A DNA stretch of 64,000 nucleotides from the NCBI RefSeq assembly GCF_964213995.1, contig NC_135830.1, positions 7,378,001-7,442,000 of the forward strand, written 5' to 3'. Under the pieces are notes generated by a model. That model saw only the letters and a program-made list of their open reading frames with translations. It was not told the origin of the DNA and did no database searches. The number at the start of each line of letters is the position of its first letter. The stretch's first letter is position 1. The position numbers and the translations under genes were made by a program. Source of the DNA: Mustelus asterias (taxonomy: Eukaryota). Positions 1,848 to 52,505 of the stretch are shown here, in pieces.

Positions 1848-2348
1848 CCATAGTTTTTAAACTTTGCTGATTTCCTGGTTAAATTCCAGCTCTCCATTCC
1901 TCCGGCAGTGACACCACTCAAACTGAGACTTTCTCCATCCCGCGTTGTTCATCTCACAATGACGGATTTCTGAATAAAAACTGTTTGCAATCAGTAGAAG
2001 TCAAATAGTTTAGTGTTTCATTCAGAGAGAAGTTTTCTAGAAGTCATTTAGCCCGAGATTTTTATCCAGAAATAAGTGATATTTCTGTCAATGTAAACGG
2101 TTAAACCTGACCTATTACCACCCGGATTTTAGCTTGTATCACCATCTCCATCGTCAGCGCTTTGCAGCCTATCACTGCCTTTGACTATCTGTGTTTGATC
2201 TCAGCCTGTCACCCATGTAAAATGTCCAACTCGGAAACAAAACTACAAATCTCTCTGCACTGATTCTGGCAGAGGTGCTTTGGAAGAGGAAGTATTGCTG
2301 GCTTGCTTATTTTTTTAAATCTGAATATATCGAAGGCAGTCTGCGACC

Positions 2349-2386
2349 CTGAAAGCGCCGAATCCTAACCACGAGACCACCAGGAT
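2349..2386 (-). pseudogene. tRNA-Glu(TTC) 5'-half remnant
   Basis: Reverse complement TCCTGGTGGTCTCGTGGTTAGGATTCGGCGCTTTCA; paralogous remnants near 35160 and 46858. Confidence 0.65.
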
Positions 2387-2795
2387 CTCATCTGCCTGAT
2401 TCTCCCAGATACTGATTACAGCAACGTGCACAGCGCCAGTTATCCACAGACACAAACTCCTTCTTGTCTGTTAAGATTTGAAATTGTTGATATTTTCACA
2501 CTGGCTTCCATTGTGACGAAAACAGAGCTGTGTTAAGCTGATGTTGTTCAGTACATTTACCGCAGTAAGGTTCATATCAGTTCGATGCTAACATTGCTCT
2601 TTGAATGTGGTGAGCTACAGTGAAATTTAATGCGGTTGAAGGTAGCTTACACATTTTGACAGAATGAACCAGCAAGGGCACTGTGAACATGGATTGCTTT
2701 GGGAATTGACGGGATTGTGAGTGGGACTGATATTTCTCCCTGCTGTTCAAATTGGCACAGGTATTGAACGAACATTGTCAGACTGCCCAGTGCTG

Positions 2796-2867
2796 GGTTC
2801 CGTGGTGTAATGGTGAGCACTCTGGGCTCTAAATCCAGCGATCCGAGTTCAAATCTCGGCGGAACCT
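2796..2867 (+). tRNA. tRNA-Gln-derived gene with CTA anticodon (putative amber suppressor)
   Basis: 72 nt; acceptor GGTTCCG/CGGAACC 7/7 paired; anticodon stem CTGGG/TCCAG with loop CT-CTA-AA (2829-2831); T arm CCGAG-TTCAAAT-CTCGG; A and B boxes intact. Confidence 0.8.
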
Positions 2868-3542
2868 TGCTTTAATTTGTCAATGCAGATGATTGATATG
2901 TTAAAAAGCATTTCGCTTAATTTTCTCACAAAATCAGAATCGAGAGAACAATTTGTCAGCCAGTTCAATTGCGAAGACAGTGCAAATTGCTGAGCCGCTG
3001 GCGCCAGATGCCTGCAATGTCAGTGCTTTTCATCTTTTATCTACAGTTTAAATCATCTGTTGGAAGTAAGAAGCAGTTGGTGTCACAAAATAACAGTGCG
3101 ACTGGAGTCTGGTAATTATTGAGCTAGTGTGTGTGTGTGTATGTTTGAAAGAGAGAATGCGTGTGTGTGAAGGTGTGTGTGTGTGTGTGTGTTTTGGGAG
3201 AAAAGTGTAGTGCCTTGGCTCAGAGTGCTGTCAATTCCATGGTGTAACGGATCGCACTCTGGCCTGTCGCCTCCGAAGTCTAGTTTAAGTTGGGACAGAT
3301 GAGTGAGTGAATGACACGACACATGAAGGTGGACCCCCCTGCCCACTGTGGCTTCCGTGTCTCTCAGCGCTTTGTATTCTTGAGGAAAAGTCCTTTGGAT
3401 CTGATGCAATGACGCCAAGAGAGTCATTCGCTGCATCGTCTGCAATGTGATTGCGGTGGAATTCGCTAAGATTTTCTCAGTGGTTAGACTTCCACTTTCT
3501 GAGAATTTGAAATAAAATGCCCTTCAGCAAAAAAAAAGCAAT

Positions 3543-3612
3543 GCGCTGGCGGGATTGAACTCGGATTGTTGGATTCAAGGTTCAGAGTCCTCACCGGTAA
3601 ACCACGGATCCC
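3543..3612 (-). pseudogene. tRNA-Gln(TTG) pseudogene
   Basis: Degenerate reverse complement of tRNA-Gln with CTTGAATCCA anticodon region. Confidence 0.6.
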
Positions 3613-3826
3613 GAAACGCGCCCACAAGCTGCAAATGATCACTCGAAGAATTTGACCTCTTTCATTCGATGTGGCAGCAACAGCAAGTGCAACAGAAACG
3701 CCTCACTCTGCGAAGACACAGTCCCCCAGTTCGACATCAAGTCATTTCCTTCGCAAGCCGTATCGGGAGATAGCAGCAGAAATAGTCATGTCTCACAGGT
3801 CATTTGCAGCGCTTTGTTGTATCCTG

Positions 3827-3898
3827 GGTTCCGTGGTGTAACGGTAAGCACTCTGGACTTTGAATCCAACGATCTGTGTTCAAACTTCAGCGAGGCCG
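3827..3898 (+). pseudogene. tRNA-Gln(TTG) pseudogene
   Basis: GGTTCCGTGGTGTAACGGTAAGCACTCTGGACTTTGAATCCAAC; T stem and 3' acceptor strand mismatched. Confidence 0.75.
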
Positions 3899-4220
3899 TC
3901 CCTTTCTTTACCAATAATGATGATTGCTTTGCGGAAGAGCATTTCATTTAAATTTTTCACAAAGTGTGAATCGAGAGGACAATTTGTCAGCCAGTTCAAC
4001 TGCTATTTCAATGCACATTGTTGATGCTCCGGCGCCAGGTGCTTGCAACATCTGTGTTTTTCTCCCTTACTTTTCGCTACTCTTTAAAGCTTTGTCGAAA
4101 CAAAGGAGCAGTTGGTGCCAAACAACAACAATCCTTCGAAAGTAGTCTGGCAATTATTGAGAAAGAGTGTGCAAGTGATATCTGGGTGAAAGGTTTCCTG
4201 CCTTAAACATGCGCCATGTT

Positions 4221-4291
4221 GGTTCCATGGTGTAACGGTTAGCACTCTGGTTTCTTAATCCAGCAATCCGAGTTTGAATCTCGGGGAACCA
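4221..4291 (+). pseudogene. tRNA-Gln-derived pseudogene with CTT at the anticodon position
   Basis: Gln body; loop TT-CTT-AA, T-T mismatch at the stem base, TTTGAAT T loop, 1-nt deletion in the acceptor stem. Confidence 0.7.
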
Positions 4292-4382
4292 GTATGCTCA
4301 TCATCCCAACTCTTGTTTAACTTGGGACAAGTGATTCAATGAATGGTTTTGCTAGGGGAACCCTGACCTATGTGGCTTTTCT

Positions 4383-4694
4383 GGCACGGTGGCACAGTGG
4401 TTAGCACTGCTGCCTCACAGTGCCAGGAACCGGGGTTCAGTTCTGTCTTCGGGTGTCTGTCTATGTGCAGTTTGCACTTTCTCCCCTTGTGGAAGGAAAA
4501 CGAGCACCCGGCGGACAATCCAATGATGTGCGGCTTCGGGTGATTGGCCATGCTAAATTGTCCATAGCATCAGAGGGACGAACAGGGCAAATACGTGGGG
4601 TTACGGGGATCGAGCCTGGGTGGGATTGTTGCCGGTGCAGGCTCGATGGACCGAATGGCTCCCGTCTGCACAGGAGGGATTCAATGATTCTGTG
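4383..4694 (+). mobile_element. tRNA-headed SINE (HE1/V-SINE-like)
   Basis: Head GGCACGGTGGCACAGTGGTTAGCACTGCTGCCTCACAG; body GATTGGCCATGCTAAATTG; CR1-like tail. Confidence 0.85.
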
Positions 4695-4858
4695 TCTGAG
4701 CGTTTTGTATTCTTGAGCAATCGTTCTCTCGGGTTGAGGCAATGACACCAGCAGAATCATTCGCTGCATCGTCTGCAGTGTTTAAAATACCACTTTCTGA
4801 GAATTTTAAATAAAATGCCCTTCAGCAAACCCTTCATCGGCTTTGGCAAAGAAAAGCA

Positions 4859-4930
4859 AGGTTACACCGAGATCTAAATTCGGATCGCTGGATTCAGAGT
4901 CCAGAGTGCTCGCCATTACACCACAGATCC
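4859..4930 (-). pseudogene. tRNA-Gln(CTG) probable pseudogene
   Basis: Anticodon arm CTGGA-CTCTGAA-TCCAG intact; B box mutated (ATTTAGAT); acceptor stem mismatched. Confidence 0.75.
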
Positions 4931-5809
4931 AGGAGCACAGCAGTCAGCTGCAAATGGTCACTCAAAGCATGTGACCTCTTTCATTCAATATGGCAGCAAC
5001 ACCAAGTGGGTGAAATGCTTTGAGTGAGAATTAGCATCTGGCTGCTCTGTTCTATGTGCTCTGGTCGAATGGTGAGCACTCTGGATCCAGAGGCGGATTC
5101 TTGATTTCTTTCCAAAAGCTGATGATTGGTTTACTGAAGGAAATTTCGTTTAAATTTTTCACCAAGTACGAAGCGAGAGGACAAATTGTCAGCCAGTTTA
5201 ACTTCTATTACATTGCACATTGCTGAGCCTCTGGCGACAGATGCCTGCAACATCAGTGTTTTTTAAAGTCTTTTCTCTTCTCTTTAACTCGTCTGTTCAA
5301 AGAAAGGGGCAGCTGATGTCACATAACAACAACCATTCAACTGGAGACAGACAATTATTGTGCAAGTGTGTGTGTGTGTCTGAGTTGGAAGAATGGTCTA
5401 GTGTTTTAGGTCAGAGTGCTGTCGTTTCCATGGTGTAACGGTTAGCACTCTGGACTGTCGCCGTCCCACCTCTTATGTAAATTGGGACAGATAAGTGAGT
5501 CAATAACATCTGTAGGTGGACCCCCTGCTTTCTGTGGCACCTCTGCCTCTGAGCCCTTTGTATTCTTGAGCAATCGTCCTCTGGGGATGATGCAATGGCG
5601 CCAGGAGACACATTCACTGCATCGTCTGCAATGTATTTGCGGTGGAATTTGCTGAAAACATTTCAATGTTCCGAATTCCACTTTCTGAGCCTTTGAAATA
5701 AAATGTCGGCTTCAGCAAAGAAAAGCAAGGTTTCACCAAGATTTGAACTCAGATCGTTGGCTTCAGTGTCCAGAAAGAGTCATTTTTCACAGGGGCAAAT
5801 GCCCAGTCA

Positions 5810-8445: not shown

Positions 8446-8680
8446 TTAGAATCTTAGAATCTTAGAATCCCGACAGCACAGAAAGAGGCCATTCGGCCCA
8501 TCGAGTCTGCACCGACCACAATCCCATCCAGGCTCTACCCCCATATCCCTACATATTTTACCCACTAATCCCTCTAACCTACGCATCCCAGGAGACTAAG
8601 GGCAATTTTTAGCTTGGCCAATCAACCTAACGCGCACATCTTTGGACTGTGGGGGGAAACCGGAGCACCCTGAGGAAACA
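8446..8680 (-). mobile_element. HE1-like SINE, 3' part
   Basis: (TTAGAATC)n tail plus reverse complement of the SINE body. Confidence 0.8.
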
Positions 8681-9172: not shown

Positions 9173-10902
9173 GGGTGGCACGGTAGCACAGTGGTTAGCA
9201 GTGCTGCTTCACACCTCCTGCGACCTGGGTTCGATTCCCGGCTTGGGTCACTGGATAAAGAACAATACAGCACAGGAATAGGCCCTCCAAGCCCGCGCCG
9301 CTCCCTGGTCCAAACTGGACCATTCTTTTGTATCCCTCCATTCCCACTCCGTTCATATGGCTTTCTGGATCAGTCTTCAACGTTCCCAGTGTGTCCGCCT
9401 CCACCACCTTGCCTGGCAGCGCATTCCAGGCCCCCACCACCCTCTGTGTAAAATATGTCCGTCTGATATCTGTGTTAAACCTCCCCCCCTTCACCTTGAA
9501 CCCATGACCCCTCGTGAACGTCACCACCGACCTGGGGAAAAGCTTCCCACCGTTCACCCTATCTATGCCTTTCATAATTTTATACACCTCTATTAAGTCT
9601 CCCCTCATCCTCCGTCTTTCCAGGGAGAACAACCCCAGTTTACCCAATCTCTCCTCATAACTAAGCCCCTCCATACCAGGTAACATCCTGGTAAACCTCC
9701 TCTGTACTCTCTCCAAAGCCTCCACGTCCTTCTGGTAGTGTGGTGACCAGAACTGGACGCAGTATTCCAGATGCGGCCGAACCAACGTTCTATACATCTG
9801 CAACATCAGACCCCAACTTTTATACTCTATGCCCAGTCCTATAAAGGCAAGCATGCCATATGCCTTCTTCACCACCTTCTCCACCTGTGACGTCACTTCC
9901 AAGGATCTGTGGACTTGCAGACCCAGGTCCCTCTGCGTATCTACACCCTTTATGGTTCTGCCATTTATCATATAGCTCCTCCCTACATTATTTATACCAA
10001 AATGCATCACTTCGCATTCATCAGGATTGAACTCCATCTGCCATTTCTTTGCCCAAATTTCCAGCCTATCTATATCCTTCTGTAGCTTCTGACAATGCTC
10101 CTTACTATCTGCAACTCCTGCCAATTTTGTGTCGTCCGCAAACTTACTGATCACCCCAGTTACACCTTCTTCCAGATCATTTATATAAATCACAAACAGC
10201 AGAGGTCCCAATACAGAGCCCTGCGGAACACCACTAGTCACAGGCCTCCAGCTGGAAAAAGACCCTTCCACTACCACCCTCTGTCTTCTGTGACCAAGCC
10301 AGTTCTCCACCCATCTAGCCACCTCCCCCTTTATCCCATGAGATCCAACCTTTTTCACCAGCCTACCATGAGGGACTTTGTCAAACGCTTTACTAACGTC
10401 CATATAGACGACATCCACGGCCCTTCCCTCGTCAACCATTTTGGTCACTTCTTCAAAAAACTCCACCAGGTTAGTGAGGCATGACCTCCCTCTCACAAAA
10501 CCATGCTGGCTATCGTTAATGAGTTTATTCCTTTCTAAATGTGCATACATCCTATCTCTAACAATCTTCTCCAACAACTTCCCCACCACGGACGTCAAGC
10601 TCACCGGCCTATAATTACCCGGGTTATCCTCCCTACCCTTCTTAAATAACGGGACCTGTGTGGAGTTTGCACATTCTCCTCGTGTTTGCGTGGGTTTCCT
10701 CCGGGTGCTCTGGTTTCCTCCCACAGTCCAAAGATGGGCGGGTTAGGTTGATTGGCCATGCTAAAAATTGCCCTTAGTGTCCTGAGATGCGTAGGTTGGA
10801 GGGATTAGTGGGTGGATATGGGGGTAGGGCCTGGGTGGGATTGTTGGCGGTGCAGACTCGATGGGCCGAATGGCCTCTTTCTGTACTGTAGGGATTCTAT
10901 GA
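9173..10902 (+). mobile_element. HE1-like SINE split by a CR1 insertion (parts 9173-9253 and 10656-10902)
   Basis: GCTTGGGTCACTG | CTGTGTGGAGTTTGCAC rejoin to the contiguous SINE sequence seen at 27961-27990. Confidence 0.85.
9254..10655 (-). mobile_element. Young 5'-truncated CR1 LINE with uninterrupted RT frame
   Basis: [32 protein letters not shown] and FADD motifs with no stop codons. Confidence 0.95.
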
Positions 10903-12244
10903 TGCTCCAGAGAAAAAAGTCCAAGGCTATCCATCCTCTCCTTATAACTCAAAATATCTGTCCCGGCATCATCCGAGTAAATCTTTTCTGCATTCCTTCT
11001 CGTTTAATAATATCCTTTCTATAATAGGGTGGCCAGAGTTGTACACAGTATTCCAAGTGTGGCCTTACCGATGTCTTGTACAACTTCAACAAGACTCCCA
11101 ACTGCTGTGTTCAATGTTCTGGCCAATGAAACCAAGCATGCTGAATGCCTTCTCTCTCACTCTTTCCACCTGTGACTAAACTTTGAAGGAGCGATGAACT
11201 GTACCCCGAGATATCTTTTTTTCTAAAACTCTCACCAACGCCCGTCCATTAATTGAGCAAGTCCTGTCCTGGTTCGATCTACCAAAATGCATCACCTCGC
11301 ATTCATCTAAAACAAACTCCATTTGCCATTCATCAGCCCACGAGCCCAGTTGATCAAGATCCCGCTGCAATCCTCGATAACCTTCTTCACTGTGCACAAT
11401 GCCTCCAATCTTGGTGTCATCTGCAAACTTACTAACCATGCCTGCTAAATGCTCATCAAAATCATTAAAATAAATGACACATAACAGTGGAACCAGGACC
11501 GACCCTGAGGCGCACCGCTGGTGACAGGCCTCCAATTTGAAAGCAACTCTCTACAACCAGCCTCTGTCTTCTGTCATCAAGCCAGTTTTACATCCATTTG
11601 GCTACCTCACGCGGAATACCGTAAGATTTAACTTGATGCAACAACCTGCCATGCGGTATCTTGTCAAATGCCTACTAAAGTCCATGTAGACAACATCAAT
11701 TACACTGCCCTCATCGACCTTCTTGGTTACCCTTTCAAAAAACTCAATAAAAATTCGTGAGACATGATTTTCCACTCACAGAGCCATTCTGATCAGTCCT
11801 TGCCTCTCTAAATGCCTCCGGATCCTGTTTCTCAGACTGCCTTCGAACAACTTACCCACTACAGATGTGAGGCTCAGCGACCTGTAGCTCCCACGCTTCT
11901 CCCTGCAACCCTTTTTAAACAGAAGCACGACATTTCCCACCCTCCAGTATTCAAGCAGATCACCTGGGCTTTCGATGATTCAGATATCTCTGCAAGGGGT
12001 CCTGCTATTTCCCCCGAGTCTCCCATAACGTGGGAGGTCGTCTGAAGGAATGAGGTCCTCTCAATTCGTGTCTGCAAGCAGAGTCAACCATTGAAAATGT
12101 TTCGATTTACTTGTGAGCCTGCTATGGTGTTAGATTGTGCTCAGGTTCTCAACCCAAAGCCCATGTGAAGCAATCCCGCCGTGTGCAAGGAAAATAAATT
12201 TACAGAACCAGTACCTTGTCCAATATGCAACAGAAGCAAAATGT

Positions 12245-12334
12245 GGGCTTGTCCGGGATTTGAACACGGGACCTCTCGCAAGCTTGTGAATTTCAACACC
12301 CAAAGCGAGAATCATACCCCTAGACCAACGAGCC
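12245..12334 (-). tRNA. tRNA-Pro(TGG) with an 18-nt intron-like insert at position 37/38 (12281-12298)
   Basis: GGCTCGTTGGTCTAGGGGTATGATTCTCGCTTTGGG[TGTTGAAATTCACAAGCT]TGCGAGAGGTCCCGTGTTCAAATCCCGGACAAGCCC; one acceptor and one T-stem mismatch. Confidence 0.8.
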
Positions 12335-20314: not shown

Positions 20315-22052
20315 AACAATTCGAGGTGGTCTGTGGCATGACCGCATGGTGGATTTGTTAACACGCTCTTTCGGAGAATGTGCGCAGACGCGATGGGCCA
20401 AGTGGCCACCATCTGCACTGCAGGGATCGCATGCATTCCATGGATCCCGAATTGTCCTGAAAGTAAATGGCTTGCTGCTGGGTTCAGAGAGTAGTTAAGA
20501 GTCAATCTGGAGTCGCATGTCGGTCAGGTTAAGGGGAGATGGCGATGTCCTCCCCTGACGCCCTGAAGGACATTGCTGAGTAAATTAATTTTCCATGTCA
20601 AACGATGGAAATTCACGGTCACCATTATTGATATTAATTTTAAATCACTGACTTTGTTAATATAACATTTACCAGTTTCAAATGTTAGAATTGAATCAAT
20701 TGGTGTGGAAGATTAACATGGCCCTCTGACTAATTAGCGGTGACATTGTCACGTACCCACTGTTTCCTCTGTAAGGGATGTTATTTTCCAGACATTGCAA
20801 CAATGACTGCATTGTGAAAGTACCGCATTGGCTGTCACATGCTTTAGGATAACTGGTGGTGCTGAAATTTATTTGTTTCCAGTTTCCAATTCTCCAGAAT
20901 GGCTAAACTTTCAATGATTTATCTGAGGAATTTGCTGCTGATAATGAACACTATAAAGCGCTGAAGGTTTATCTTAGTCTCTAACTCTGACGTTACACAA
21001 CGTGTTGGTGTTTCATATGCCCTATTAAAACAATTCCCCTTCTCTGTTCTGATCTTCATTACTCCACTTTAATTTTCAATTGCTTCAAATTGAATTTAAT
21101 AATTTGATCATCAGAATGAACTTGGAGCGGAAATCTGTGATCTCAGTAGCATTTGCAGGAGCTGAACATTTTTCTATGAATCATCTTCAGCAGAGAATTA
21201 CACATCCTTACATTCGGTCACTGTTTCTATCAGGAGTTACATGTAGATGAGAAAATGCCGTTAGAACCGGATATGCACCTGTATCTGACTGAGGTAACTG
21301 GGACCGCAACTGTCAATCTCAGGTGATGGCAGCAGCGAGAAGCTCCACCTCCCGAGCTCGCTTTATAATAACGTTAGCGGTTAAACTGACAACGGTGCAC
21401 TTTCTTTTCTCAAGGAATCTTCATTCGGGTAAAGGTGACAAAGTGAGCATTTCATTAATTGGACGACTGATTTTGCAAGTTATGGTCACAGCGAGGACGT
21501 AAGGTAAAAAAAAATCTGCTGAATAAGTGCTAACTGAAAGTTTAACAGAATTGTCCATAAGTGAAACTATAAACTTATAAATCCCTTTGAATTTGTGAAA
21601 TCTTAATCCCGGATTCTAAAAGTCCTGCATGAACTAAACATTCATAAAAGATCCGTTATTTATCATATATTCCCTGCACTTTATCAATGTGTGTCACATT
21701 CTGTGTTCGCTATGTCGTACATGTGAATTCTAATATATTGCTGTTAAATTAAAGCAATTCGAACCTTCAGCAGTGTCAGTGATTACTGTGCGTTCACACA
21801 CACTCAGTGTGTGAATCGCAGCATTGTACATTGATGCCATTGAATGATAAATGTTACTTCCTTCTGAATATCATTATCCCGTTTGAAATTTCAATCTTTG
21901 CAGTTTGTGCGATTGGATCAGTTACTGTCCGATTGCCAGGAGACTGGCGGCTGTCCCCGACGAAAAACACTGAATGTTATGACATATGAGCGGGAACAGG
22001 AGGAGACACCGAGCCTCACTACGGATAGAACTTTGTTTCCCATTTCATCCAG

Positions 22053-22359
22053 GTTTTAGTCAGGAATTCTCTGTTACCCAACGCCGTCCAAAAGTGATTA
22101 GGACAGAAGGAGACATTACAACTTTAAACTGCATCTACTTTACGACAGAAAATTCCTTCAGTTTATTCTGGGTCCGACAATTCCTTGGGAGAGAACCTCA
22201 AATACTAAATCGCAGATTTTCGGCTGGTTACGAAATTAAAGCGGATTTTGCTCGAAGCCGTTTCTCCTCTGGGCTGGACAGTTCGAGTGGAAACTTTACC
22301 TTAACCGTCTCCAAACTGCGGCTCTCTGATACAGCCATGTACTACTGCGCACTGACTCT
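22053..22359 (+). CDS. T-cell receptor alpha/delta-type germline V segment 2 (open V exon)
   Basis: Acceptor TTTCATCCAG at 22052; reads FSQEFSVTQ..EGDITTLNCIY..LFWVRQFLGREPQ..RFSSGLDSSSGNFTLTVSKLRLSDTAMYYCALT with no stop. Confidence 0.9.
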
Positions 22360-22398
22360 CACAGCGATACCAACCTGTTCAATACTCGTACAATAACT
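22360..22398 (+). promoter_or_regulatory. 23-RSS of V2
   Basis: CACAGCG + 23-nt spacer + ACAATAACT, close to consensus CACAGTG/ACAAAAACC. Confidence 0.9.
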
Positions 22399-23257: not shown

Positions 23258-23329
23258 GCTTCACTGGTGTAATGATGAGCACTCTGGACTTCGAATCCAG
23301 CGTGCCGAGTTCAAACCTCGGTGGAAATT
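23258..23329 (+). pseudogene. tRNA-Gln-derived pseudogene with TCG at the anticodon position
   Basis: CTGGA-CT-TCG-AA-TCCAG arm and T arm intact; acceptor stem mismatched. Confidence 0.7.
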
Positions 23330-23726
23330 TGTTTTGCTAAAGCCGGCGATTGGTTTGCTAAAGGACATTTTATTTAAAATTCTCAGAAAGTGGAATTTTA
23401 AACTCTGAGGAAATCTCAGCAAATCCCACCGAAATCACATTGCAGACGATGCAGCGAATGACTCTCCTGGTGACATTGCATCATACCCATCGAACGACTG
23501 CACAAGAAAGCAAAGCTTTCACAGGCAGAGACGCCACAATGGGCAGAGGGTCCACCTATAGGTGTCCCTCACTCACTCATCTGTCCCAATTTAAAGAAGA
23601 GGTGGGACGGTGAGAATAGTCGCTCCTCTGAAATTCCAACTCACATTACTGAATTCAATGCCCAGAGTAAACTTTATAACATGAAACTGAAAGGACTCTG
23701 CCGATGGCACGAGGACTTTCTCCCAA

Positions 23727-26821: not shown

Positions 26822-26911
26822 GGACTCGCCCGGAATTCGAACCCGGGCTTTCTCGCAGCCTTGCGAATCCCGACAAATAAAGCGAGAATCAAACCCCCAA
26901 ACCAACGAGCT
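26822..26911 (-). pseudogene. Intron-bearing tRNA-Pro pseudogene
   Basis: GCTCGTTGGTTTGGGGGTTTGATTCTCGCTTTATT[TGTCGGGATTCGCAAGGC]TGCGAG; anticodon mutated. Confidence 0.7.
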
Positions 26912-27850: not shown

Positions 27851-28210
27851 GGGGCGGCACGGTAGCACAGTGTTTAGCACTGCTGCTTCACAGCTCCACG
27901 GTAGCACAGTGGTTAGCAGTGCTGCTTCGCAGCTCCAGAGTCCCGGGTTCGATTCCCGGCTCGGGTCACTGTCTGTGTGGAGTTTGCACATTCCCCTCGT
28001 GTCTGCGTGGGTTTCCTCCTGGTGCTCCGGTTTTCGTCCACAGATGTGCGGGTTAGGTTGATAGGCCAGGTTAACAATTGTCCCTTAGAGTCCTGCGATG
28101 CGTAGGTTAGAGGGATTCGTGGGTAAATATGTGGGGATAGGGCCTGGGTGGGATTGTGGTCGGTGCAGACTCGATGGGCCAAATGGCCTCCTTCTGCACT
28201 GCAGGGTTCC
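27851..28210 (+). mobile_element. HE1-like SINE with a tandemly duplicated head
   Basis: CACGGTAGCACAGTG.TTAGCA.TGCTGCTTC.CAGCTC occurs twice (~27858 and ~27897). Confidence 0.9.
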
Positions 28211-28276
28211 AAAAAAAAAGATTTATAAAGTAAGTAAACAGACTGTGTGATGGTTAAATAAAAATGCGTTCCCTCC

Positions 28277-29527: not shown

Positions 29528-29601
29528 GTCTCTGTGGCGCAATTGGTTATCGCGTTCGGCTGTTAACCGAAAGGGTGGTGGTTCGATCCCATCCAGGGAC
29601 G
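29528..29601 (+). tRNA. tRNA-Asn(GTT), near-intact
   Basis: 74 nt; one D-stem mismatch; TTTTT terminator immediately downstream. Confidence 0.8.
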
Positions 29602-34620: not shown

Positions 34621-34692
34621 AGGGGGCACTCGGATTTGAACCGAGGGCCGTTTGATCTGCAGTCAAACGCTCTACCACTGAGCTACACCCCC
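34621..34692 (-). tRNA. tRNA-Cys(GCA)
   Basis: GGGGGTGTAGCTCAGTGGTAGAGCGTTTGACTGCAGATCAAACGGCCCTCGGTTCAAATCCGAGTGCCCCCT; all stems pair. Confidence 0.9.
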
Positions 34693-35832
34693 TCAGCTGT
34701 GAACTGACGCTCGGGATCCAGCATAGTCTTATTAAGTGGTGGAGGGGGTTCCAGTGGTCAGACTGCATCACGCTTTGTCTCAGAGTTACTGGTTTCTGAG
34801 TGAAGTCGGAGAGCTCAGCGTTTAAGTTAGCGAGATGTTTTCTTGTGATTTGGCTGAGATTTGGATCCAGGTCTGGGAGATGTTTGTGTCAATCTAACCG
34901 ATAAAATCAACTCCATTGTCACACAGATTTGAACTTGTATCCCCATCTCCATTGGCAGCGCTTTGCAGCCTATCACTGTCCTTCACAATCTGTGTTTGTT
35001 CTTGAACTGTTGCCCATGTGACATTTCCAATTCGGACACAAATATAGATCTAACTCCACTGCTTCTGACAGAGCTGTTTTCGACCAGGAAACGACTCAGG
35101 TTTGTTAAATGGATTGTAAAAAACTTTAAATCCTGGCATATCGAAGCCGATATATGACCCTGAAAGCGCCAAATCCTAAGCACTGGACCACCAGGATTTC
35201 ATTCTCCTGGTTCTCCCATAGACTGGATACAGGAATATGCACAGTGCCAATTATTCACAGTCGCATTCTCCTTCCTGTCTTGTGCACGTTGTTCAGCTTT
35301 GAAATTATTCATTTTTTTCACATTAGCTTCCAGTGTGATGAAAGCAGAGCAGTGATAAGCGGAAGTTTTTCAACAGATTTACCACAATAAGGTTTATAGC
35401 AAACATTACTCTTTGAATGTGGTGAGCTACAATGAAATTTAATGCAGTAGAAGGTAAGTCACTCATTCTGACAGTAGGTACCAGCAATTGCAATGTAAAT
35501 ATGATGTCGGGATACCGGCGTTGGACTGGGGTGGGCACAATAAGAAGTCTCACAGCATCATGTTAAAGTCCAACAGGTTCATTTGCTCCGATAATAAAAT
35601 CAATTTGCTTCATTTTATCAGCGCCCCGAAAGCTCCTGACTCCAAATAGACTTGGTGTTGTAAGACTTCCGAACGTAAATATGAATTGTTGTGGGTAATT
35701 GACAGGATTGTGAAATGGGGTAGATTTTTCCTTCTTCCTGTTCAACCTGCCATAAGTATCGCTCCTGTTTTCGACCAGGAAGTAATACCCACTCTCCTTA
35801 ATTCATGTGTTGCACGAGAGCAATGAATCATC

Positions 35833-37094: not shown

Positions 37095-40028
37095 GAAGTC
37101 AGTGAGGGTGGTGAGGTATTGGGGAAGGTATCAGGGTCAAGGGTGGGTACCGGTAGACAGGAAGGTGGGTTCAAGTGTGTCTACTTCAATGCAAGGAGCA
37201 TCCGGAACAAGGTAGATGAACTTGGGGGCGTGGATTGGTACTTGGGACTACGATGTTGTGGCCATTACGGAGACGTGGGTAGAACAAGGACAGGAATGGT
37301 TGTTGGACGTTCCGGGGTATCGATGTTTCACTAAATGTAGGGAAGCTGGTAAAAGAGGTGGAGGATTGGCATTGTTAATCAAGGATAGTTTAACGGCTGC
37401 GGAAAGGCACTTCAAGGGGGATCTGAACACTGAGGTAATATGGGCTGAGGTTAGAAATAGGAAAGGAGCGGTCACGTTGTTAGGAGTTTACTATAGGCCC
37501 CCAAATAGTAATAGAGATGTGGAGGAAGAAATTGCTAAGCAGATTATGGATATGTGTGGGGGTCACAGGGTAGTTGTCATGGGGGACTTTAACTTTCCAA
37601 ATATTGATTGGAACCTTGGTAGGTCAAATAGTTCGGATGGGGCAGTTTTTGTGCAGTGTGTGCAGGAGGGTTTCCTGACACAATATGTGGATAGGCCGAC
37701 AAGAGGTGAGGCCACATTGGATTTGGTACTGGGAAATGAACCGGGCCAAGTGTTAGATTTGGTTGTGGGAGAGCACTTTGGAGATAGTGACCACAATTCG
37801 GTGTCTTTTGTTATTGCAATGGAGAGGGATAGGGCCGTACGGCAGGGCAAGGTTTACAATTGGGGGAGAGGGAATTATGATGCGATTAGGCAAGAATTAG
37901 GGGGCATACGTTGGGAACAGAAACTGTCAGAGAAAGGAACTAATGAAAAGTGGAACTTTTTCAAGGAACAAATACTGGATGTCCTTGATAGGTATGTCCC
38001 TGTCAGGCAGGGAGGAAACGGCCGAGTGAGGGAACCATGGTTCACGAAAGAGGTAAAATGTCTTGTGAAAAGGAAGAGGGAAGCTTATGTAGGGATGAGG
38101 AAACAAGGTTCAGAGGGCTCGATTGAGGGTTACAAGTTAGCAAGGAATGAGCTGAAAAAGGGGCTTAGGAGAGCTAGGAGGGAACACGAGAAGTCCTTGG
38201 TGGGTCGGATCAAGGAAAACCCCAAGGCTTTTTACTCTTATGTGAGGAATAAAAGAATGACCAGGGTGAGGTTAGGGCCGGTCAAGGACAGTAGTGGGAA
38301 CTTGTGTATGGAGTCAGTAGAGATAAGCGAGGTGATGAATGAATACTTTTCTTCAGTGTTCACCAAGGAGAGGGGCCATGTTTTTGAGGAAGAGAAGGTG
38401 TTACAGGCTAATAGGCTGGAGGAAATAGATGTTCGGAGGGAGGATGTCCTGGCAGTTTTGAATAAACTGAAGGTCGATAAGTCCCCTGGGCCTGATGAAA
38501 TGTATCCTAGGATTCTTTGGGAGGCAAGGGATGAGATTGCAGAGCCTTTGGCTTTGATCTTTGGGTCCTCGCTGTCCACGGGGATGGTGCCAGAGGACTG
38601 GAGAATGACGAATGTTGTTCCTCTGTTTAAGAAAGGGAATAGAAATGACCCTGGTAATTATAGACCGGTTAGTCTTACTTCGGTGGTTGGTAAATTGATG
38701 GAAAAGGTCCTTAGAGATGGGATTTACGACCATTTAGAAAGATGCGGATTCATCCGGGATAGTCAGCACGGATTCGTGAAGGGCAAGTCGTGCCTCACAA
38801 ATTTGATTGAATTTTTTGAGGAGGTAACTAATTGTGTTGATGAAGGTAGGGCAGTTGATGTCATATACATGGATTTAGTAAGGCGTTTGATAAGGTCCCC
38901 CATGGTCGGCTTATGATGAAAGTGAGGAGGTGTGGGATAGAGGGAAAGTTAGCCAATTGGATAGTTAACTGGCTGTCTGATCGAAGACAGAGGGTGGTGG
39001 TGGATGGAAAATTTTCGGATTGGAGGCAGGTTGCTAGCGGAGGGCCGCAGGGATCAGTGCTTGGTCCTCTGCTCTTTGTGATTTTTATTAATGACTTAGA
39101 GGAGGGGGCTGAAGGGTGGATCAGTAAATTTGCTGATGACACCAAGATTGGTGGAGTAGTGGATGAGGTGGAGGGCTGTTGTAGGCTGCAAAGAGACATA
39201 GATAGGATGCAAAGCTGGGCTGAAAAATGGCAAATGGAGTTTAACTCTGATAAATGTGAGGTGATTCATTTTGGGAGGCCGAATTTAAATGTGGATTACA
39301 GGGTCAAAGGTAGGGTTCTGAAGACTGTGGAGGAACAGAGAGATCTTGGAGTTCATATCCACAGGTCTCTAAAGGTTGCCACTCAATTGGATAGAGCTGT
39401 GAATAAGGCCTATAGTGTGTTAGCTTTTATTAACAGGGGATTGGAGTTTAAGAGCCGTGGGGTTATACTGCAACTGTACAGGACCTTGGTGAGACCACAT
39501 TTGGAATATTGTGTGCAGTTCTGGTCACCTCACTATAAGAAGGATGTGGAAGCGCTGGGAAGAGTGCAGAGGAGATTTACCAGTATGCTGCCTGGTTTGG
39601 AGGGTAGGTCTTATGAGGAAAGGTTGAGGGAGCTAGGGCTGTTCTCTCTGGAGCGGAGGAGACTGAGGGGAGACTTAATAGAGGTTTATAAAATGATGAA
39701 TAGGATAGATAGAGTGAACGTTCAAAGACTATTTCCTCGGGTGGATGGAGCTATTACAAGGGGGCATAACCATAGGGTTCGTGGTGGGAGATACAGGAAG
39801 GATATCAGAGGTAGGTTCTTTACGCAGAGAGTGGTTGGGGTATGGAATGGACTGCCTGCAGTGATAGTGGAGTCAGACACTTTAGGAACATTTAAGCGGT
39901 TATTGGATAGGTACATGGAGCACACCAGGATGATAGGGAGTGGGATAGCTTGATCTTGGTTTCAGATAAAGCTCGGCACAACATCGTGGGCCAAAGGGCC
40001 TGTTCTGAGCTGTATCGTTCTATGTTCT
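37095..40028 (+). mobile_element. CR1 LINE with near-complete ORF2 (APE endonuclease + RT), two frameshifts
   Basis: YFNARSIRNK, ITETW, GDFN and SDH endonuclease motifs; RT with FADD; ORFs 37216-38916 and 38913-39953; TTCTATGTTCTA tail. Confidence 0.97.
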
Positions 40029-40383: not shown

Positions 40384-40456
40384 CGCCCAACGTGGGGCTC
40401 GAACCCACGGCCCTGAGATTAAGAGTCTCATGCTCTACCGACTGAGCTAGCCGGGC
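40384..40456 (-). tRNA. tRNA-Lys(CTT)
   Basis: Matches the vertebrate Lys-CTT sequence except one variable-loop base; TTTTT terminator downstream. Confidence 0.95.
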
Positions 40457-41186: not shown

Positions 41187-41278
41187 GGGATCGAGTCCGG
41201 CATGTGAACCCGAGAACGCTCACACGTTTGTAGATGCTTACTCCCCAGGCCCGAGTCATACCCCTCGTCCAACGAGCC
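41187..41278 (-). pseudogene. Intron-bearing tRNA-Pro pseudogene
   Basis: GGCTCGTTGGACGAGGGGTATGAC.. with ~18 extra nt after the anticodon loop; stems decayed. Confidence 0.65.
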
Positions 41279-44288: not shown

Positions 44289-44361
44289 GGCTCCATAGCT
44301 CAGTGGTTAGAGCACTGGTCTTGTAAACCAGGGGTTGCGAGTTCAATTCTCGCTGGAGCCG
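44289..44361 (+). tRNA. tRNA-Thr(TGT)
   Basis: GGCTCCATAGCTCAGTGGTTAGAGCACTGGTCTTGTAAACCAGGGGTTGCGAGTTCAATTCTCGCTGGAGCCG; all stems pair. Confidence 0.9.
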
Positions 44362-46394: not shown

Positions 46395-49190
46395 TCAGTC
46401 GCAAGCTGGTTCACGGGATCCAGCATATTCTTATTAAGTGTGGAGGGGGATCGAGTGGTCAGACTGCATCCCGCTTTGTCTCAGAGTTACTGGTTTCTGA
46501 GTGAAGTCGGAAAGCTTAGTGTTTAAGTTAGCGAGAAGTTTTCTTGTGATTTGGCTGAGATTTGGATCCAGGTCGAGGAGATATTTGTGTCAACCTAATC
46601 GATAAAATCTACCCCATTGTCATACAGATTTGTATCCCCATCCGTATTGGCAGCGCTTTGCAGCCTATCACGGCCTTTCACTATCTGTGTTTATTCTTCA
46701 ACTGTTGCCCATGTGACATTTCCAATTCAGACACAGAATTATAGATCTAACTGCACTGCTTCTGAGAGAGCTGTTTTCGATCAGGAAGCAATTCAGGTTT
46801 GTTGAACGGATTATGAAAAACTTTAAATCTTAGCATATCGAAGCCGATCTATGACTCTGAAAGCGCCGAATCCTAAGCACTGGACCACCAGAATTTCAGC
46901 TTCCTGATTCTCCCAGAAACTGAGTACAGGAATATGCACAGTGCCAATTACTCACGGTTGCACTCACCTTCCAATCGTGTGCACGTTGTTCAGCTTTGAA
47001 ACTGTTCATATTTTCACATTCGCTTCCAGTGTGATGAAAGCGGAGCTGTGATAAGATGAACCTTTTCAACAGATGAACTACAATAAGGTTTATAAGAAAC
47101 ATTACTCTTTGAATGTGGTGGGCTACAGTTAAATTTAATGCAGCAGAAGATAGCTCACTCATTTTGACAGGAGGTGCCAGCAATTGCAATGTAAATATGA
47201 TGTCGAGATACGGACGTTGGACTGGGATGGGCAGAATAAGACGACTCACAGCATCATGTTAAAGTCCAACTGGTTCAATTGCTCCGATAATAAAATAAAT
47301 TTGCTTTATTTTATCAGCGCCCCGAAAGCTCTTGATTCCAAATCGCTCCGGTGTTGTGAGACTTCTTAATGGAAATATTAATTGTTGTGGGTAATTGACA
47401 GGATTGTGGATTGGGGCAGATTTTTCCTCCTTGCTGTTCAACCTGCCACAAGTATCGCTCCCGTTTTAAATCAGGAAGCAATACCCACTCTCCTTAATTC
47501 ATGTGTTGTACGAGAGCAATGAATCATCATTCCCTAACTGGGAATCGAACCCAGACCATGGCATTGAAGGCGGCGAATTCTAACGACTCGACCAACAAGG
47601 AATTTGAGGTGTCCTGAGCATTATTGAGCAAGTGTGCGTGCGTGCGTGTGCATGTGTGTGTGCGTGTGTGGGTGGGTGCGTGCGGGTGCGTGCGTGTGTG
47701 GTTTCGGAGAAAGGTCTTGTGCTCTAGGGTAACCGCTGATGAATGAAGCCGTCGACCTCTTTATCGCTGAGCTTTTTGTGTTCTTGAGCAATCGTTCTCT
47801 GGAGCTGATGCAATGAGGCCAGGAGAGTAACCCACTGCACCTTCTGCAATGTGATTGCGGTGCGATATACTGAAAGCTGTTAATTTTATAAAAATCATCT
47901 TTTTGCGAATTGTAAATCAAATGCCCTTCAGTGCCCGGTAAGTATTCTCTCCAGCTAAAAGTGCAGCTGGTTTATTTGGAATCTCTAGCTTTCGGAGCGC
48001 AGCTCCTTCATCACACACACTGAGCATTCACCACATTTTTCTGTCTTTCAATGAACGCAATCGATATCTCATCAATTCCCCGGTATCCTGAGTCTCTGAC
48101 AATGATTTCCACAGTACACTGCTTTAAATCTTATTTTTTCAATGTGAAATTAAGCTGTTTGTTCCATGTGAAGGATTTACACTTATACCCTTCGGGGATG
48201 ATGGTGACGTAGTGGTAAAATCAGTGGAGCATGAATCCCGTGGCTCAGGCTCACAGGTCCCGATCCCACCACAGTCTAGAACTGAAACGGAAGTGAAAGT
48301 TAGTCTCAGTAATGAAGCTTGTTTTCTGATTGTCATGAAAACTCATCTGGACCTTTTGCAGAAGGAAATCTGCCATTCTTCCCCTTTCATCCATTGGACT
48401 CCAAACCCAAGGCAATGTGATTGACTCTTAACTGCCCTCTGAAATGGCCCAGCAAAATACGCAGTTCAGTGGGAAATAGGGGTGGACAACAAATGCTGGC
48501 ATTGAGAATGAAATATATATTGCATTAGCAGCATTTTATGAAATGATTAATTCTCATTTTGTTTCATTTCATGTCAAATAGGGTGACATATTCTGGTGTC
48601 TCATTATTTAAAACCGCAGCCCTTTAACTGTTCAAACAGGTAAGGTTCAGTCAGAGAAAAGTGATCCACTGTGATCCCAAGCAAGGTATTGTAGTTGCTG
48701 CAAATCCCACCTCAAAACAGAAAATGTTAGAAGCACTCATCGGCTTCAACAGCTTCTGTGGAGAGGGAAAGAGAGTGAATGATTCAGGTTGCTGACCTTT
48801 GACCCTAACTGGAAGAAATTTGTCATTGAATGGTTTTCAAACAAGTACAGAATCAAGGAAAATAGAGAGGGAGAGGAGGAAAGGACAAACGGTCTTTTGA
48901 TAGGATGGGAGGCTGGAGTGATTGAATTACAATGGAGATGATTATTGTTCCCACTGACACAATCGCGCCGATCTGGGTTTGAATCTCACAATAAATGAGA
49001 ACAAAACCTCTCGCTGAGTTCAGCGCGAAACTCCCGCCTTCCAGTGAACTGGAGGCAGTTTTCAGTCACAAACCCACAACTCTGAGATAAACAACGCAGA
49101 AAGGAGAAAGACTCAGTTTGAGCGGTGATGCTTCTGGAGGAACGGAGATCGGGAATTCACCCAAGAATGGGGCAAAGTTTAAAACGATGA

Positions 49191-50243: not shown

Positions 50244-50334
50244 GACCTCTTGCTTGGCCTGTGAACCCAGGACCTCTCGCAAGTTGGTGATGTTAACACC
50301 CTCAGCCCGAATCATACCCCTCGTCCAACGAGCC
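50244..50334 (-). pseudogene. Intron-bearing tRNA-Pro(AGG-like) pseudogene
   Basis: ..GGCTGAGGG[TGTTAACATCACCAACT]TGCGAGAGGTCC..; 17-nt insert at 37/38. Confidence 0.7.
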
Positions 50335-51130
50335 GCTGCTGGCGAAGTTGTTCAATGAAAATATTTCCATTGCCATTCAAAGCTACTCAGACTTCTGCAG
50401 TGAAAGGTGAAAATGCTGGAAAACAAATCTCATATTTTAGCTCCATAATCTTTGATTACCACGGGGAATGGTTAGAAATGTAGGAAGTTTTAAAGAAGTG
50501 TTTTGCAGCAGCATAACAAGAGGGGAGGCCTCTGGCCGGGTGTAAATCAGGAGATATTAAATGGGGGAAACAAAGAATTTTAAAGTAATGACACCACAGA
50601 ATGGGGCCATTCCTAAGTCCTTTACAGGACGCAGTTGTGTTGTGGATGAAGGGGAACCTGTGGATGTAATTGGAGCCACAGTAATGAGTTGGTGGGTTTT
50701 GAAAATTGAAAGTTACACTTAGGAAATAGAATTAGGAGCAGAAGTGGGCTAATACAGCGCTTCGAGCCTGAACCGTCATGCAATCAGTTCATGACTGATC
50801 TCTCCCTGTTCTAAAATCCACCTCCCTATCTGTTCCAATATCCCCTCATCCCTTTTATTATCAGGAATATATCTGTCTCTTTCTTGAAGCCATTTAATGA
50901 TTCAGACTCCATCGCGCTATGGGGAAATGCATTCCAAAAATTCACGACCCTCTGCGAGAAGTAGTTCCTCCTCATCTTAGTTTTAAATCTACAGCCTCTC
51001 AACCTATACATTTGAGCTGTTCTTCTCGATTGCCCCATGAGAAGAAACATTTCGTCGACGTTAAATCTATCAATTCTTTTTAGAATTTCATATACCCCGA
51101 TCACTTGTGAGGCACGACTTGCCCTTCACA

Positions 51131-52505
51131 GATTCGTGAAGGGCAAGTCGTGCCTCACAAATTTGATTGAATTCTTTGAGGAGGTAACTAAGTGTGTTGA
51201 TGAAGGTAGGGCAGTTGATGTCATATACATGGATTTTAGTAAGGCGTTTGATAAGGTCCCCCATGGTCTGCTTATGATGAAAGTGAGGAGGTGTGGGATA
51301 GAGGGAAAGTTGGCCGATTGGATAGGTAACTGGCTGTCTGATCGAAGGCAGAGGGTGGTGGTGGATGGAAATGTTTCGGATTGGAGGCAGGTTGCCAGCG
51401 GAGTGCCACAGGGATCAGTGCTTGGTCCTCTACTCTTTGTGATTTTTATTAATGACTTAGAGGAGGGGGCTGAAGGGTGGATCAGTAAATTTGCTGATAA
51501 CACCAAGAATGGTGGAGTAGTGGATGAAATCATAGAAATCGTAGAAACCCTACAGTGCAGAAAGAGGCCATTCGGCACATCGAGTCTGCACCGACCACAA
51601 TCCCACCCAGGCCCCACTCCTATATCCCTACACGTTTACCCGCTAAGGTGTTGTAGGCTGCAAAGAGACATAGATAGGATGTAAAGTGGGCTGAAAAATG
51701 GCAAATGGAGTTTAACCCTGATAAATGTGAGGTGATTCATTTTGGTAGGACAAATTTAAATGTGGATTACAGGTTCAAAGGTAGGGTTCTGAAGACTGTG
51801 GAGGAACAGAGAGATCTTGGGGTCCATATCCACAGATCTCTAAAGGTTGCCACTCAAGTGGATAGAACTGTGAAGAAGGCCTATAGTGTGTTAGCTTTTA
51901 TGAACAGGAGGTTGGAGTTTAAGAGCCGTGGGGTCATGCTGCAACTGTACAGGACCTTGGTGAGACCACACTTGGAATATTGTGTGCAGTTCTGGTCACC
52001 TCACTATAAGAAGGATGTGGAAGCGCTGGAAAGAGTGCAGAGGAGATTTACCAGGATGCTGCCTGGTTTGGAGGGTAGGTCTTATGAGGAAAGGTTGAGG
52101 GAGCTAGGGCTGTTCTCTCTGGAGCAGAGGAGGCTGAGGGGTGACTTAATAGAGGTTTATATAATGATGAAGGGGATAGATAGAGTGAACGTTCAAAGAC
52201 TATTTCCTCGGGTGGATGGAGCTATTACAAGGGGGCATAACTATAGGGTTCGTGGTGGGAGATATAGAAAGGATATCAGAGGTAGGTTCTTTACGCAGAG
52301 AGTGTTTGGGGTGTGGAATGGACTGCCTGCAGTGATAGTGGAGTCAGACACTTTAGGAACATTTAAGCGGTTATTGGATAGGCACAATGAGCACACCAGG
52401 ATGATAGGGAATGGGATAGCTTGATCTTGGTTTCAGATAAAGCTCGGCACAACGTCGTGGACCGAAGGACCTGTTCTGTGCTGTACTGTTCTAATTTCTA
52501 GTTCT
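51131..52505 (+). mobile_element. 5'-truncated CR1 of the same young subfamily as 37095, with an antisense SINE tail inserted at ~51528-51646
   Basis: Near-identical to 38771-40028 apart from the insert. Confidence 0.95.

What the first reader, a model, noticed from the sequence alone, without database searches (positions are those of the whole stretch)
2796..2867. Structurally intact tRNA-Gln-derived amber suppressor (anticodon CUA)
Seen: this is the best-preserved Gln-type copy in the window. It has a fully paired acceptor stem (G7-C66 where the common Gln sequence has A-T), an intact D arm, T arm and internal promoter, and a G31-T39 wobble, yet the anticodon is CTA, one change from CTG. 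Established: Gln-derived CUA tRNAs are a classic route to UAG readthrough. Inference: if transcribed it could insert Gln at UAG. Caveats: only TTT runs follow immediately (first T4 about 50 nt downstream), and neutral mutation in a large tRNA array or a base-call error would look the same.
Basis: partly seen in the sequence, partly recalled or inferred. Interest (0 to 1): 0.7.

Follow-up and report, generated by a model that had tools for sequence, protein, structure and literature searches.

The report
Latent amber suppressor in tRNA graveyard
A glutamine tRNA gene in a probable shark tRNA cluster carries an anticodon that matches the UAG stop codon and would likely read through it if expressed, but it sits among dozens of decaying tRNA copies and is most likely an unselected mutation of a known kind.

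Summary
2796-2867 (+) is a full cloverleaf Gln-type tRNA gene with anticodon CTA (Rfam 65 bits, all 21 stem pairs standard, promoter invariants present). It lies in a duplicated cluster of 42 tRNA-derived copies, mostly decayed; 6 of 33 readable anticodons, and 3 of 8 Gln ones, have left their family. G7-C66 is shared with two neighbouring Gln copies, so it did not co-evolve with CUA. The body has 2 own changes in 72 nt (A31G, G36A) against 31 of 251 in the 3' flank (p 0.015; 0.03 as best of seven). So it was constrained, probably as a Gln-CUG gene, until late. Published human Gln-CUA tRNAs, one with G31-U39, suppress UAG, so the RNA is probably competent if made. Expression is untested; the flanks lean against it (lowest flank CpG of 13 loci, eroded terminators, a rearrangement 31 nt upstream). 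A drifting intact Gln-CTG gene with two hits gets a stop anticodon in 2-3% of cases, and human Gln-CTG G36A alleles are already catalogued. Verdict: a latent, probably unselected amber suppressor; new member of a known kind; interest 0.3.

The parts
2796..2867 (+). Gln-type tRNA gene, 72 nt, full cloverleaf, U73, anticodon CTA
2829..2831 (+). Anticodon CTA (G36A relative to CTG); A36 is found in no other of 7 aligned Gln copies
2826..2834 (+). G31.T39 wobble closing the anticodon stem (A31 in most paralogs; G31 also in the heavily decayed 23691- copy)
2802..2860 (+). G7-C66 pair (bases 2802 and 2860), shared with copies 3827+ and 3611-
2803..2813 (+). Internal promoter A box region (T8, A14, G18, G19 present)
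   Evidence: box definition from established knowledge
2847..2855 (+). Internal promoter B box (G53-C61 invariants present)
   Evidence: box definition from established knowledge
2871..2878 (+). Interrupted T-tract T3-AA-T3; the two same-class paralogs have T3-C-T3 here; possible weak non-canonical terminator
   Evidence: non-canonical terminators in PMC3141230
2921..2924 (+). First T4 (T5 at the same place in both same-class paralogs); no T5 within 350 nt
1997..2764 (+). Upstream block homologous to 34802-35759 and 46503-47455 rather than to other Gln upstream flanks; homology stops about 31 nt before the gene (rearrangement junction)
2868..3133 (+). 3' flank duplicated with units at 3899-4171 and 5092-5360 (about 71-74% identity); used as the neutral yardstick
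3233..5799 (.). Eight further Gln-derived copies, all damaged or truncated (3233+, 3611-, 3827+, 4221+, 4930-, 5055+, 5424+, 5799-); 4221+ has anticodon CTT
23258..23691 (.). Two more decayed Gln-derived copies (23258+ with anticodon TCG; 23691-)

Best explanation
This is a redundant glutamine tRNA gene whose anticodon reads CUA, likely from a late, unselected G36A change in a Gln-CUG gene inside a decaying tRNA cluster, and it would act as a moderate amber suppressor only if transcribed, which is untested and probably weak or absent. Steps. (1) Shown: segmental duplications made a local family of 11 Gln copies among 42 tRNA-derived copies, most now broken. (2) Shown statistically: this copy's body changed far less than its flank; inferred from that, it stayed a working Gln gene, or was refreshed by gene conversion, for most of its history. 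(3) Inferred: constraint then relaxed and two transitions hit the anticodon arm (A31G, G36A). (4) Inferred from human data: if Pol III makes the RNA, RNase P/Z and CCA addition mature it, GlnRS charges it, and it competes with eRF1 at UAG to insert Gln, at lower efficiency than an A31-U39 body. (5) Inferred: the allele persists because the locus is poorly expressed or low readthrough is tolerated, not because readthrough is selected.
For: Cluster of decay: 42 copies listed, 13 reach the Rfam gathering score. Anticodon shifts in 6 of 33 readable copies and 3 of 8 Gln copies. G7-C66 shared with paralogs. Own changes 2 of 72 in the body versus 31 of 251 in the flank, Fisher p 0.015, 0.032 as best of seven. 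Chance of a stop anticodon given two substitutions and an intact structure is 1.7-3.2%, and shark genomes stand out for tRNA locus number (10.1101/2025.06.08.657570, passages). Flank CpG density 0.019 is the lowest of 13 loci compared (window mean 0.029), and CpG context is the best predictor of tRNA gene activity in mammals (10.1101/661942, passages). Both T-tracts are weaker than in same-class paralogs. The distal upstream flank is replaced at about -31. Rare human Gln-CTG-1-2 and -1-5 G36A alleles are listed (PMC11212642 Table 1). The natural Arg-TCG-6-1 G36A allele gave no suppression and its gene appears unexpressed (PMC12361112, passages). Anticodon shifts scale with gene redundancy (PMC3923123, passages). 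Competence: a human G31-U39 Gln-CUA body scored 141 versus 412 for its near-twin, which has A31 and one other difference (PMC6379413 supplements).
Against: The body is better preserved than the flank, both promoter boxes and all five body CpGs are intact, and the only strict singleton base among 7 Gln copies is the anticodon change itself. This is also what a still-expressed or even selected gene, or a single base-call error, would look like. The CpG retention is weak evidence (chance 0.26-0.73). Distant T4 does not block human tRNA genes. The CpG predictor comes from mammals and may not carry over. The human body nearest to this one (chr6.trna1, 4 differences by eye) scored only 3.2 as a UAG suppressor though 1532 as a UAA suppressor, and no G7-C66 Gln body was among the rows seen, so competence is not certain. 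No ortholog, population or expression data could be examined.
Confidence: 0.68

Rival explanations
1. The gene is still transcribed and gives real but low-level Gln insertion at UAG in some tissues; it is tolerated, not selected.
For: Intact A and B boxes and cloverleaf. Body conserved against flank. A usable interrupted T-tract and a T4 at +53. Engineered suppressors caused little readthrough at native stops in cells (PMC6379413, passages). A Sup-TTA reference sat in a read cluster with Lys-TTT in zebrafish tRNA sequencing (PMC11417395, passage; this may be multi-mapping).
Against: Lowest flank CpG of 13 loci; eroded T-tracts and replaced distal upstream flank; the one natural human G36A allele tested was inactive and its gene apparently unexpressed.
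Confidence: 0.2
2. A36 is a sequencing or assembly error; the true gene is an ordinary Gln-CTG isodecoder with G7-C66 and G31.U39.
For: A36 is the only strict singleton base among 7 aligned Gln copies; the rest of the gene is a good Gln tRNA.
Against: No N in the window. The site is a substitution outside any long homopolymer (it extends an AA to AAA without changing loop length). Other copies show real anticodon changes. The nearest paralog differs at 10 of 72 positions, so local collapse is unlikely.
Confidence: 0.08
3. The gene is a selected, dedicated amber suppressor that supplies Gln for programmed UAG readthrough (host extensions or retroelement gag-pol type sites), with G31.U39 damping its strength.
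For: It is the single survivor of 11 Gln copies. Both own changes fall in the anticodon arm. G31-U39 goes with about a third of the activity in a human near-twin pair.
Against: Single copy in the window; G7-C66 not co-evolved; chance of 2-3% per drifting copy is enough genome-wide; no target ORF was identified (53 ORFs listed, 13 scanned: LINE ORF2 pieces and one V-set exon).
Confidence: 0.04
4. It is a pyrrolysine tRNA, as the ARAGORN label says.
For: ARAGORN names it tRNA-Pyl, apparently from the CTA anticodon under the bacterial code.
Against: Best Rfam family is generic tRNA; the body differs from a human Gln tRNA at 4 of 72 sites outside the anticodon (by eye); it has G18G19, TTC and a 5-bp anticodon stem, unlike tRNA-Pyl (features recalled); the window is vertebrate.
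Confidence: 0.002

Closest known systems
Natural human Gln-CTG-1-2 and Gln-CTG-1-5 G36A alleles (PMC11212642 Table 1; passage seen)
   Same: Same change (G36A) in the same tRNA family, giving CUA in an otherwise normal Gln body in a vertebrate nuclear genome.
   Different: Those are very rare population variants (0.002-0.007%); this one is in an assembly, frequency unknown, and also carries G7-C66 and G31.U39.
Engineered human Gln-CUA ACE-tRNAs (PMC6379413; passages and two supplementary tables)
   Same: Near-identical bodies with anticodon CUA; one has G31-U39 and suppresses UAG (141 versus 412 for its A31 near-twin).
   Different: Expressed from plasmids with a tRNA-Tyr leader and a strong T-run; no G7-C66 Gln body in the 30 of 31 rows seen; the nearest body scored only 3.2 at UAG.
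Computationally annotated 'Sup' and anticodon/isotype-conflict tRNA genes of tRNA-rich animal genomes (PMC8450103, PMC9858662, PMC11417395, PMC3923123; passages)
   Same: High-scoring tRNA gene whose anticodon disagrees with its body, in a redundant family; Sup-TTA genes are predicted in 21.65% of eukaryotes surveyed.
   Different: No paper seen describes a shark Gln-CUA gene.
Yeast SUP70 tRNA-Gln-CUG alleles (PMC3664417; passages)
   Same: A CUA-anticodon allele is an amber suppressor; the 31-39 pair modulates function, and a G31-U39 allele largely corrected the sup70-65 pseudohyphal defect.
   Different: Single-copy yeast gene and laboratory mutants; G31-U39 was tested with the CUG anticodon, where it gave no suppression.
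Ciliate Gln-CUA tRNAs of UAG reassignment, and E. coli supE (recalled; ciliate papers seen only as search listings)
   Same: Gln body with CUA anticodon.
   Different: In ciliates the code itself is changed; nothing here suggests reassignment.

Membership tests
Eukaryotic cytosolic tRNA-Gln gene | Cloverleaf with standard stems | tested here: met
   21 of 21 pairs standard; 65 bits; MFE cloverleaf
Eukaryotic cytosolic tRNA-Gln gene | Internal A and B box invariants | tested here: met
   12 of 12 positions checked
Eukaryotic cytosolic tRNA-Gln gene | Gln-type body outside the anticodon | tested here: met
   4 of 72 differences from human chr6.trna1 body, by eye; homologous to local CTG/TTG copies
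Eukaryotic cytosolic tRNA-Gln gene | Anticodon CUG or UUG | tested here: not met
   CTA at 2829-2831
Eukaryotic cytosolic tRNA-Gln gene | Pol III terminator near the 3' end | tested here: inconclusive
   T3-AA-T3 at +3, first T4 at +53; such layouts occur at human tRNA genes
Functional amber suppressor tRNA | CUA anticodon in a 7-nt loop with U33 and purine 37 | tested here: met
Functional amber suppressor tRNA | Transcribed and matured in vivo | not testable with these tools
   No expression or chromatin data; flank features lean against
Functional amber suppressor tRNA | Charged by GlnRS and inserts Gln at UAG | not testable with these tools
   Inferred from human near-twins; in E. coli U35 is a key GlnRS site and G36 contributes (PMC9976931)
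Selected suppressor or codon reassignment | Multiple copies or conserved orthologs with CUA | tested here: inconclusive
   1 copy in 64 kb; no eukaryotic genome collection was available for orthologs
Selected suppressor or codon reassignment | Body changes that co-evolve with the anticodon | tested here: not met
   G7-C66 is shared with TTG-bearing paralogs; only A31G accompanies G36A
tRNA-Pyl | Pyl-type fold: no G18G19 or TPsiC, 6-bp anticodon stem, one base before the D stem (recalled) | tested here: not met
   Standard features all present

The most novel reading that the evidence does not exclude
A shark genome carries a fixed, transcribed and charged Gln-CUA tRNA, the lone survivor of its local Gln family, tuned down by a G31.U39 wobble and kept by selection: a genome-encoded cognate amber suppressor in a vertebrate that inserts Gln at chosen UAG codons.
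Probability: 0.05. Interest if true: 0.85.

Novelty: new member of a known kind. Interest (0 to 1): 0.3.

Why it matters
As most likely read, it is an ordinary product of tRNA gene birth and death, and a useful example of how a stop-reading anticodon appears in a redundant cluster. It is still a cheap natural test of an open question: how much cognate stop-codon suppression a vertebrate germ line tolerates, which bears on suppressor-tRNA therapy. If it proved fixed, expressed and conserved, it would be a genome-encoded cognate amber suppressor in a vertebrate. I saw no such case in the papers and listings examined; most subscription literature is not in that library.

Tried and rejected
(1) G7-C66 as a compensatory signature of selection on the suppressor: rejected, it is shared with 3827+ and 3611-. 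(2) tRNA-Pyl label: rejected. (3) CpG retention in the body as proof of activity: uninformative; the chance of no CpG hit in two mutations is 0.26-0.73. The local CpG transition excess (0.149 versus 0.044 per site, 5 duplicate pairs) counts sites where either copy has CG, so it is rough. (4) Leave-one-out majority consensus gave 7 differences for the focal copy (16, 31, 34, 36, 43, 65, 67 in sequential numbering). Five are shared with other copies and reflect ties among decayed paralogs, so I used 2 own changes; the strict singleton count is 1; counting all 4 differences from the human body set gives P 0.048. (5) The first anticodon census gave 7 of 33 with three mis-registered rows and a shifted invariant list; corrected (6 of 33). 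Nine of 42 copies were left out because the loop is deleted or truncated; copy starts and registers were set by hand. (6) A tree of 3' flanks groups the copy with 3827+ and 5055+ (100/99) but does not resolve the ancestral anticodon. (7) Looking for a UAG-containing target: 13 of 53 ORFs scanned, only LINE ORF2 pieces and a V-set exon; no systematic readthrough-site scan was done. (8) Homolog search with the V exon found nothing. (9) The zebrafish supplement that might list Sup genes was too large to read, and the Squalomix preprint's supplements were not seen, so genome-wide Sup and Gln counts for fishes and sharks are unchecked. (10) The bacterial, phage and plasmid collections were not searched, as the locus is vertebrate.

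Full report
Observation. The gene is at 2796-2867 on the + strand, 72 nt, with CTA at 2829-2831, G at 2826 facing T at 2834, and G at 2802 facing C at 2860; the window has no N. Rfam scores it 65.0 bits as generic tRNA, fourth of 13 hits at the gathering score, with no non-standard pair. All 21 stem pairs are standard (G.U at 13-22 and 31-39) and 12 of 12 invariant positions are present. Its minimum-energy fold is a cloverleaf, z -2.05, 9 of 200 shuffles as good. ARAGORN calls it tRNA-Pyl, which reflects only the anticodon. By eye it differs from the human Gln body chr6.trna1 at 4 of 72 sites outside the anticodon: 7, 20a, 31 and 66.

Setting. The window is vertebrate and probably shark. It holds LINE ORF2 frames whose best chromosome-scale named matches are Chiloscyllium punctatum (71%) and Stegostoma tigrinum (73%), with the listed bird and turtle proteins at 39-57%. 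The two top named hits carry bacterial names on contigs under 2 kb, which I read as contamination. It also holds an immunoglobulin V-set exon. Self-comparison shows a mosaic of segmental duplications at 64-96% identity. From Rfam and BLAST hits I assembled by hand 42 tRNA-derived copies of nine families; most are truncated or mispaired. Eleven are Gln-derived, nine of them in three repeated units at 2.8-5.8 kb. Of 33 copies with a readable anticodon loop, 6 no longer match their family, including 3 of 8 Gln copies: CTA here, CTT at 4221, TCG at 23258 (9 copies left out; an earlier count of 7 had mis-registered rows). A preprint on shark and ray genomes reports that elasmobranchs stand out in tRNA locus number, with one stingray cluster of over 300 loci (10.1101/2025.06.08.657570, passages).

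What is old and what is new in the gene. G7 occurs in four copies and C66 in three, so G7-C66 is shared with 3827+ and 3611-, both TTG-bearing. It is a trait of the local family, not a partner of the CUA anticodon. The copy's own changes are A31G and G36A. G31 also appears in one heavily decayed copy, so the strict singleton count among 7 aligned copies is 1, against 4-21 for the others. In a three-way alignment of the duplicated 3' flank, this unit has 31 own changes in 251 columns; 2 of 72 in the body is lower (Fisher p 0.015; 0.032 as best of seven; 0.048 if all four differences from the human body are counted). So the body was protected for most of the time since duplication, by selection or by gene conversion. 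This does not say that the CUA state was protected: selection on a Gln-CUG gene followed by late relaxation predicts the same pattern. A flank tree places the copy with 3827+ (TTG) and a deleted copy, so a CTG ancestor is parsimony only.

Is chance enough? Using substitution rates from five duplicate pairs in the window, two substitutions in a Gln-CTG body give a stop anticodon in 0.9-1.5% of cases, and in 1.7-3.2% of those that leave stems and invariants intact. One hundred drifting copies would yield two or three such genes (inference). The class is known. Human Gln-CTG-1-2 and -1-5 G36A alleles are catalogued at 0.002-0.007% (PMC11212642 Table 1). Sup-TTA genes are predicted in 21.65% of eukaryotes surveyed (PMC9858662). 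Fourteen of 414 possible single anticodon changes give suppressors, and shifts scale with gene redundancy (PMC3923123). tRNAscan-SE's authors regard high-scoring atypical tRNAs as probably not functional but not automatically pseudogenes (PMC8450103).

Would it work if made? In the ACE-tRNA screen, 9 of the 30 Gln-CUA rows seen (of 31) scored above 100 in normalised luminescence, against 1-5 for mitochondrial-derived copies (PMC6379413 supplementary tables). One of them, chr6.trna82, has G31-U39 and scored 141; its near-twin chr6.trna63, with A31 and one other difference, scored 412. With UUA the pair scored 272 and 1483. So the wobble probably weakens but does not abolish suppression. Against this, chr6.trna1, the body nearest to ours, scored 3.2 at UAG while scoring 1532 at UAA, an unexplained outlier, and no G7-C66 Gln body was among the rows seen. 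In yeast a CUA allele of tRNA-Gln is an amber suppressor, and a G31-U39 allele largely corrected the sup70-65 pseudohyphal defect (PMC3664417). In E. coli U35 is a key GlnRS site and G36 contributes (PMC9976931). These constructs used strong foreign flanks and say nothing about the native locus.

Is it made? Untested. Sequence hints lean against. Flank CpG density (350 nt each side) is 0.019, lowest of 13 loci compared and below the window mean of 0.029; upstream CpG observed/expected is 0.40. CpG context best predicts tRNA gene activity in mammals (10.1101/661942), though transfer to sharks is unproven. The two same-class paralogs have T3-C-T3 next to the gene and T5 at about +53; here these read T3-AA-T3 and T4. 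This is erosion, not loss, since human tRNA genes often end at interrupted T-tracts (PMC3141230). Upstream, 1997-2764 is homologous to blocks that elsewhere precede a Glu pseudogene, and the 150 nt upstream share no significant local alignment with any of 6 paralogs. Two other copies, 3827+ and 5799-, also lack such matches, so this is not unique. The gene sits about 31 nt from a rearrangement junction of unknown age. All five body CpGs are intact, which is uninformative. The one natural human G36A allele tested, in Arg-TCG-6-1, gave no suppression, and the authors suggest it persists because its gene is not expressed (PMC12361112); that gene has a damaged B box, which ours does not.

Mechanism and odds. 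Most likely (0.68): a late, unselected G36A change in a redundant Gln-CUG gene, giving a latent suppressor that is silent or nearly so. Expressed but tolerated leakiness: 0.2. Base-call error: 0.08. Selected suppressor: about 0.04-0.05. Shown: sequence, structure, paralog history, body-versus-flank contrast. Inferred: timing, charging, readthrough, silence.

Papers seen. Passages found by term search: PMC9858662, 10.1101/661942, PMC11212642, PMC3664417, PMC6379413 (plus rows of supplementary files 4 and 5), PMC12361112, PMC3141230, 10.1101/2025.06.08.657570, PMC11417395, PMC8450103, PMC9976931, PMC3923123; PMC10787021, PMC10583094 and PMC11506809 gave nothing useful. None was read whole. Searches for a described shark or vertebrate genomic Gln-CUA suppressor found only the human variants. 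Supplements of the zebrafish paper and of the shark preprint were not seen and may hold genome-wide Sup counts. tRNA-Pyl features, supE and ciliate details, and the CR1 and V-SINE names are recalled. Orthologs, other copies in the genome, reads and expression stayed unchecked because no eukaryotic genome or read collection was available.

Verdict. Observation confirmed; interpretation partly supported; new member of a known kind; interest 0.3.

Noticed in passing
window 12245-12334 (-), 26822-26911 (-), about 41190-41278 (-), about 50245-50334 (-): Four Pro-type tRNA copies with an insert of about 18 nt just after position 37, the canonical intron site; 12245-12334 has anticodon TGG and is the best kept. 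ARAGORN mislabels the 26822 copy as Ile. [quoted passage not shown]
   Followed up: partly
window about 22050-22360 (+): An open immunoglobulin V-set exon (Pfam E 3.7e-12) ending in a YYC motif and followed by a CACAG heptamer-like motif, resembling an Ig/TCR V segment inside the tRNA cluster. No close homolog found by word search.
   Followed up: partly
window 37216-39953 (+), 9195-10742 (-), 51016-52424 (+), 11176-11550 (-): LINE ORF2 copies (endonuclease plus reverse transcriptase; CR1-like, name recalled). The 37-40 kb copy has two long frames of 566 and 364 aa split by a frame change.
   Followed up: partly
window 4221-4291 (+) and 23258-23329 (+): Two more Gln-bodied copies with shifted anticodons (CTT and TCG), labelled Lys and Arg by ARAGORN; both have stem or promoter damage.
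   Followed up: yes
window 44289-44361 (+), 34621-34692 (-), 40384-40456 (-), 58759-58840 (+), 29528-29601 (+): One best surviving copy per family (Thr-TGT, Cys-GCA, Lys-CTT, Leu-TAG, Asn-GTT; 60-76 bits). The Thr, Cys and Leu copies also lack a T4 within 40 nt (92, 130 and 44 nt), so distant terminators are common among this cluster's best genes.
   Followed up: partly
window about 2764-2765: Rearrangement junction: the block that elsewhere (35.7 kb, 47.4 kb) is followed by a Glu-type pseudogene is here followed by the Gln-CTA unit.
   Followed up: partly
window about 1410-1650 (also 15.2-15.4, 31.7-31.8, 43.5-43.7, 53.8-54.0, 62.8-62.9 kb): A short repeated element with an internal inverted repeat that gives weak miRNA-family matches well below their gathering scores; likely a non-autonomous mobile element.
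   Followed up: no
window about 4380-4690, 8450-8680, 10656-10906, 27897-28212: Copies of a tRNA-headed SINE-like repeat (resembles shark V-SINE/HE1, name recalled).
   Followed up: no
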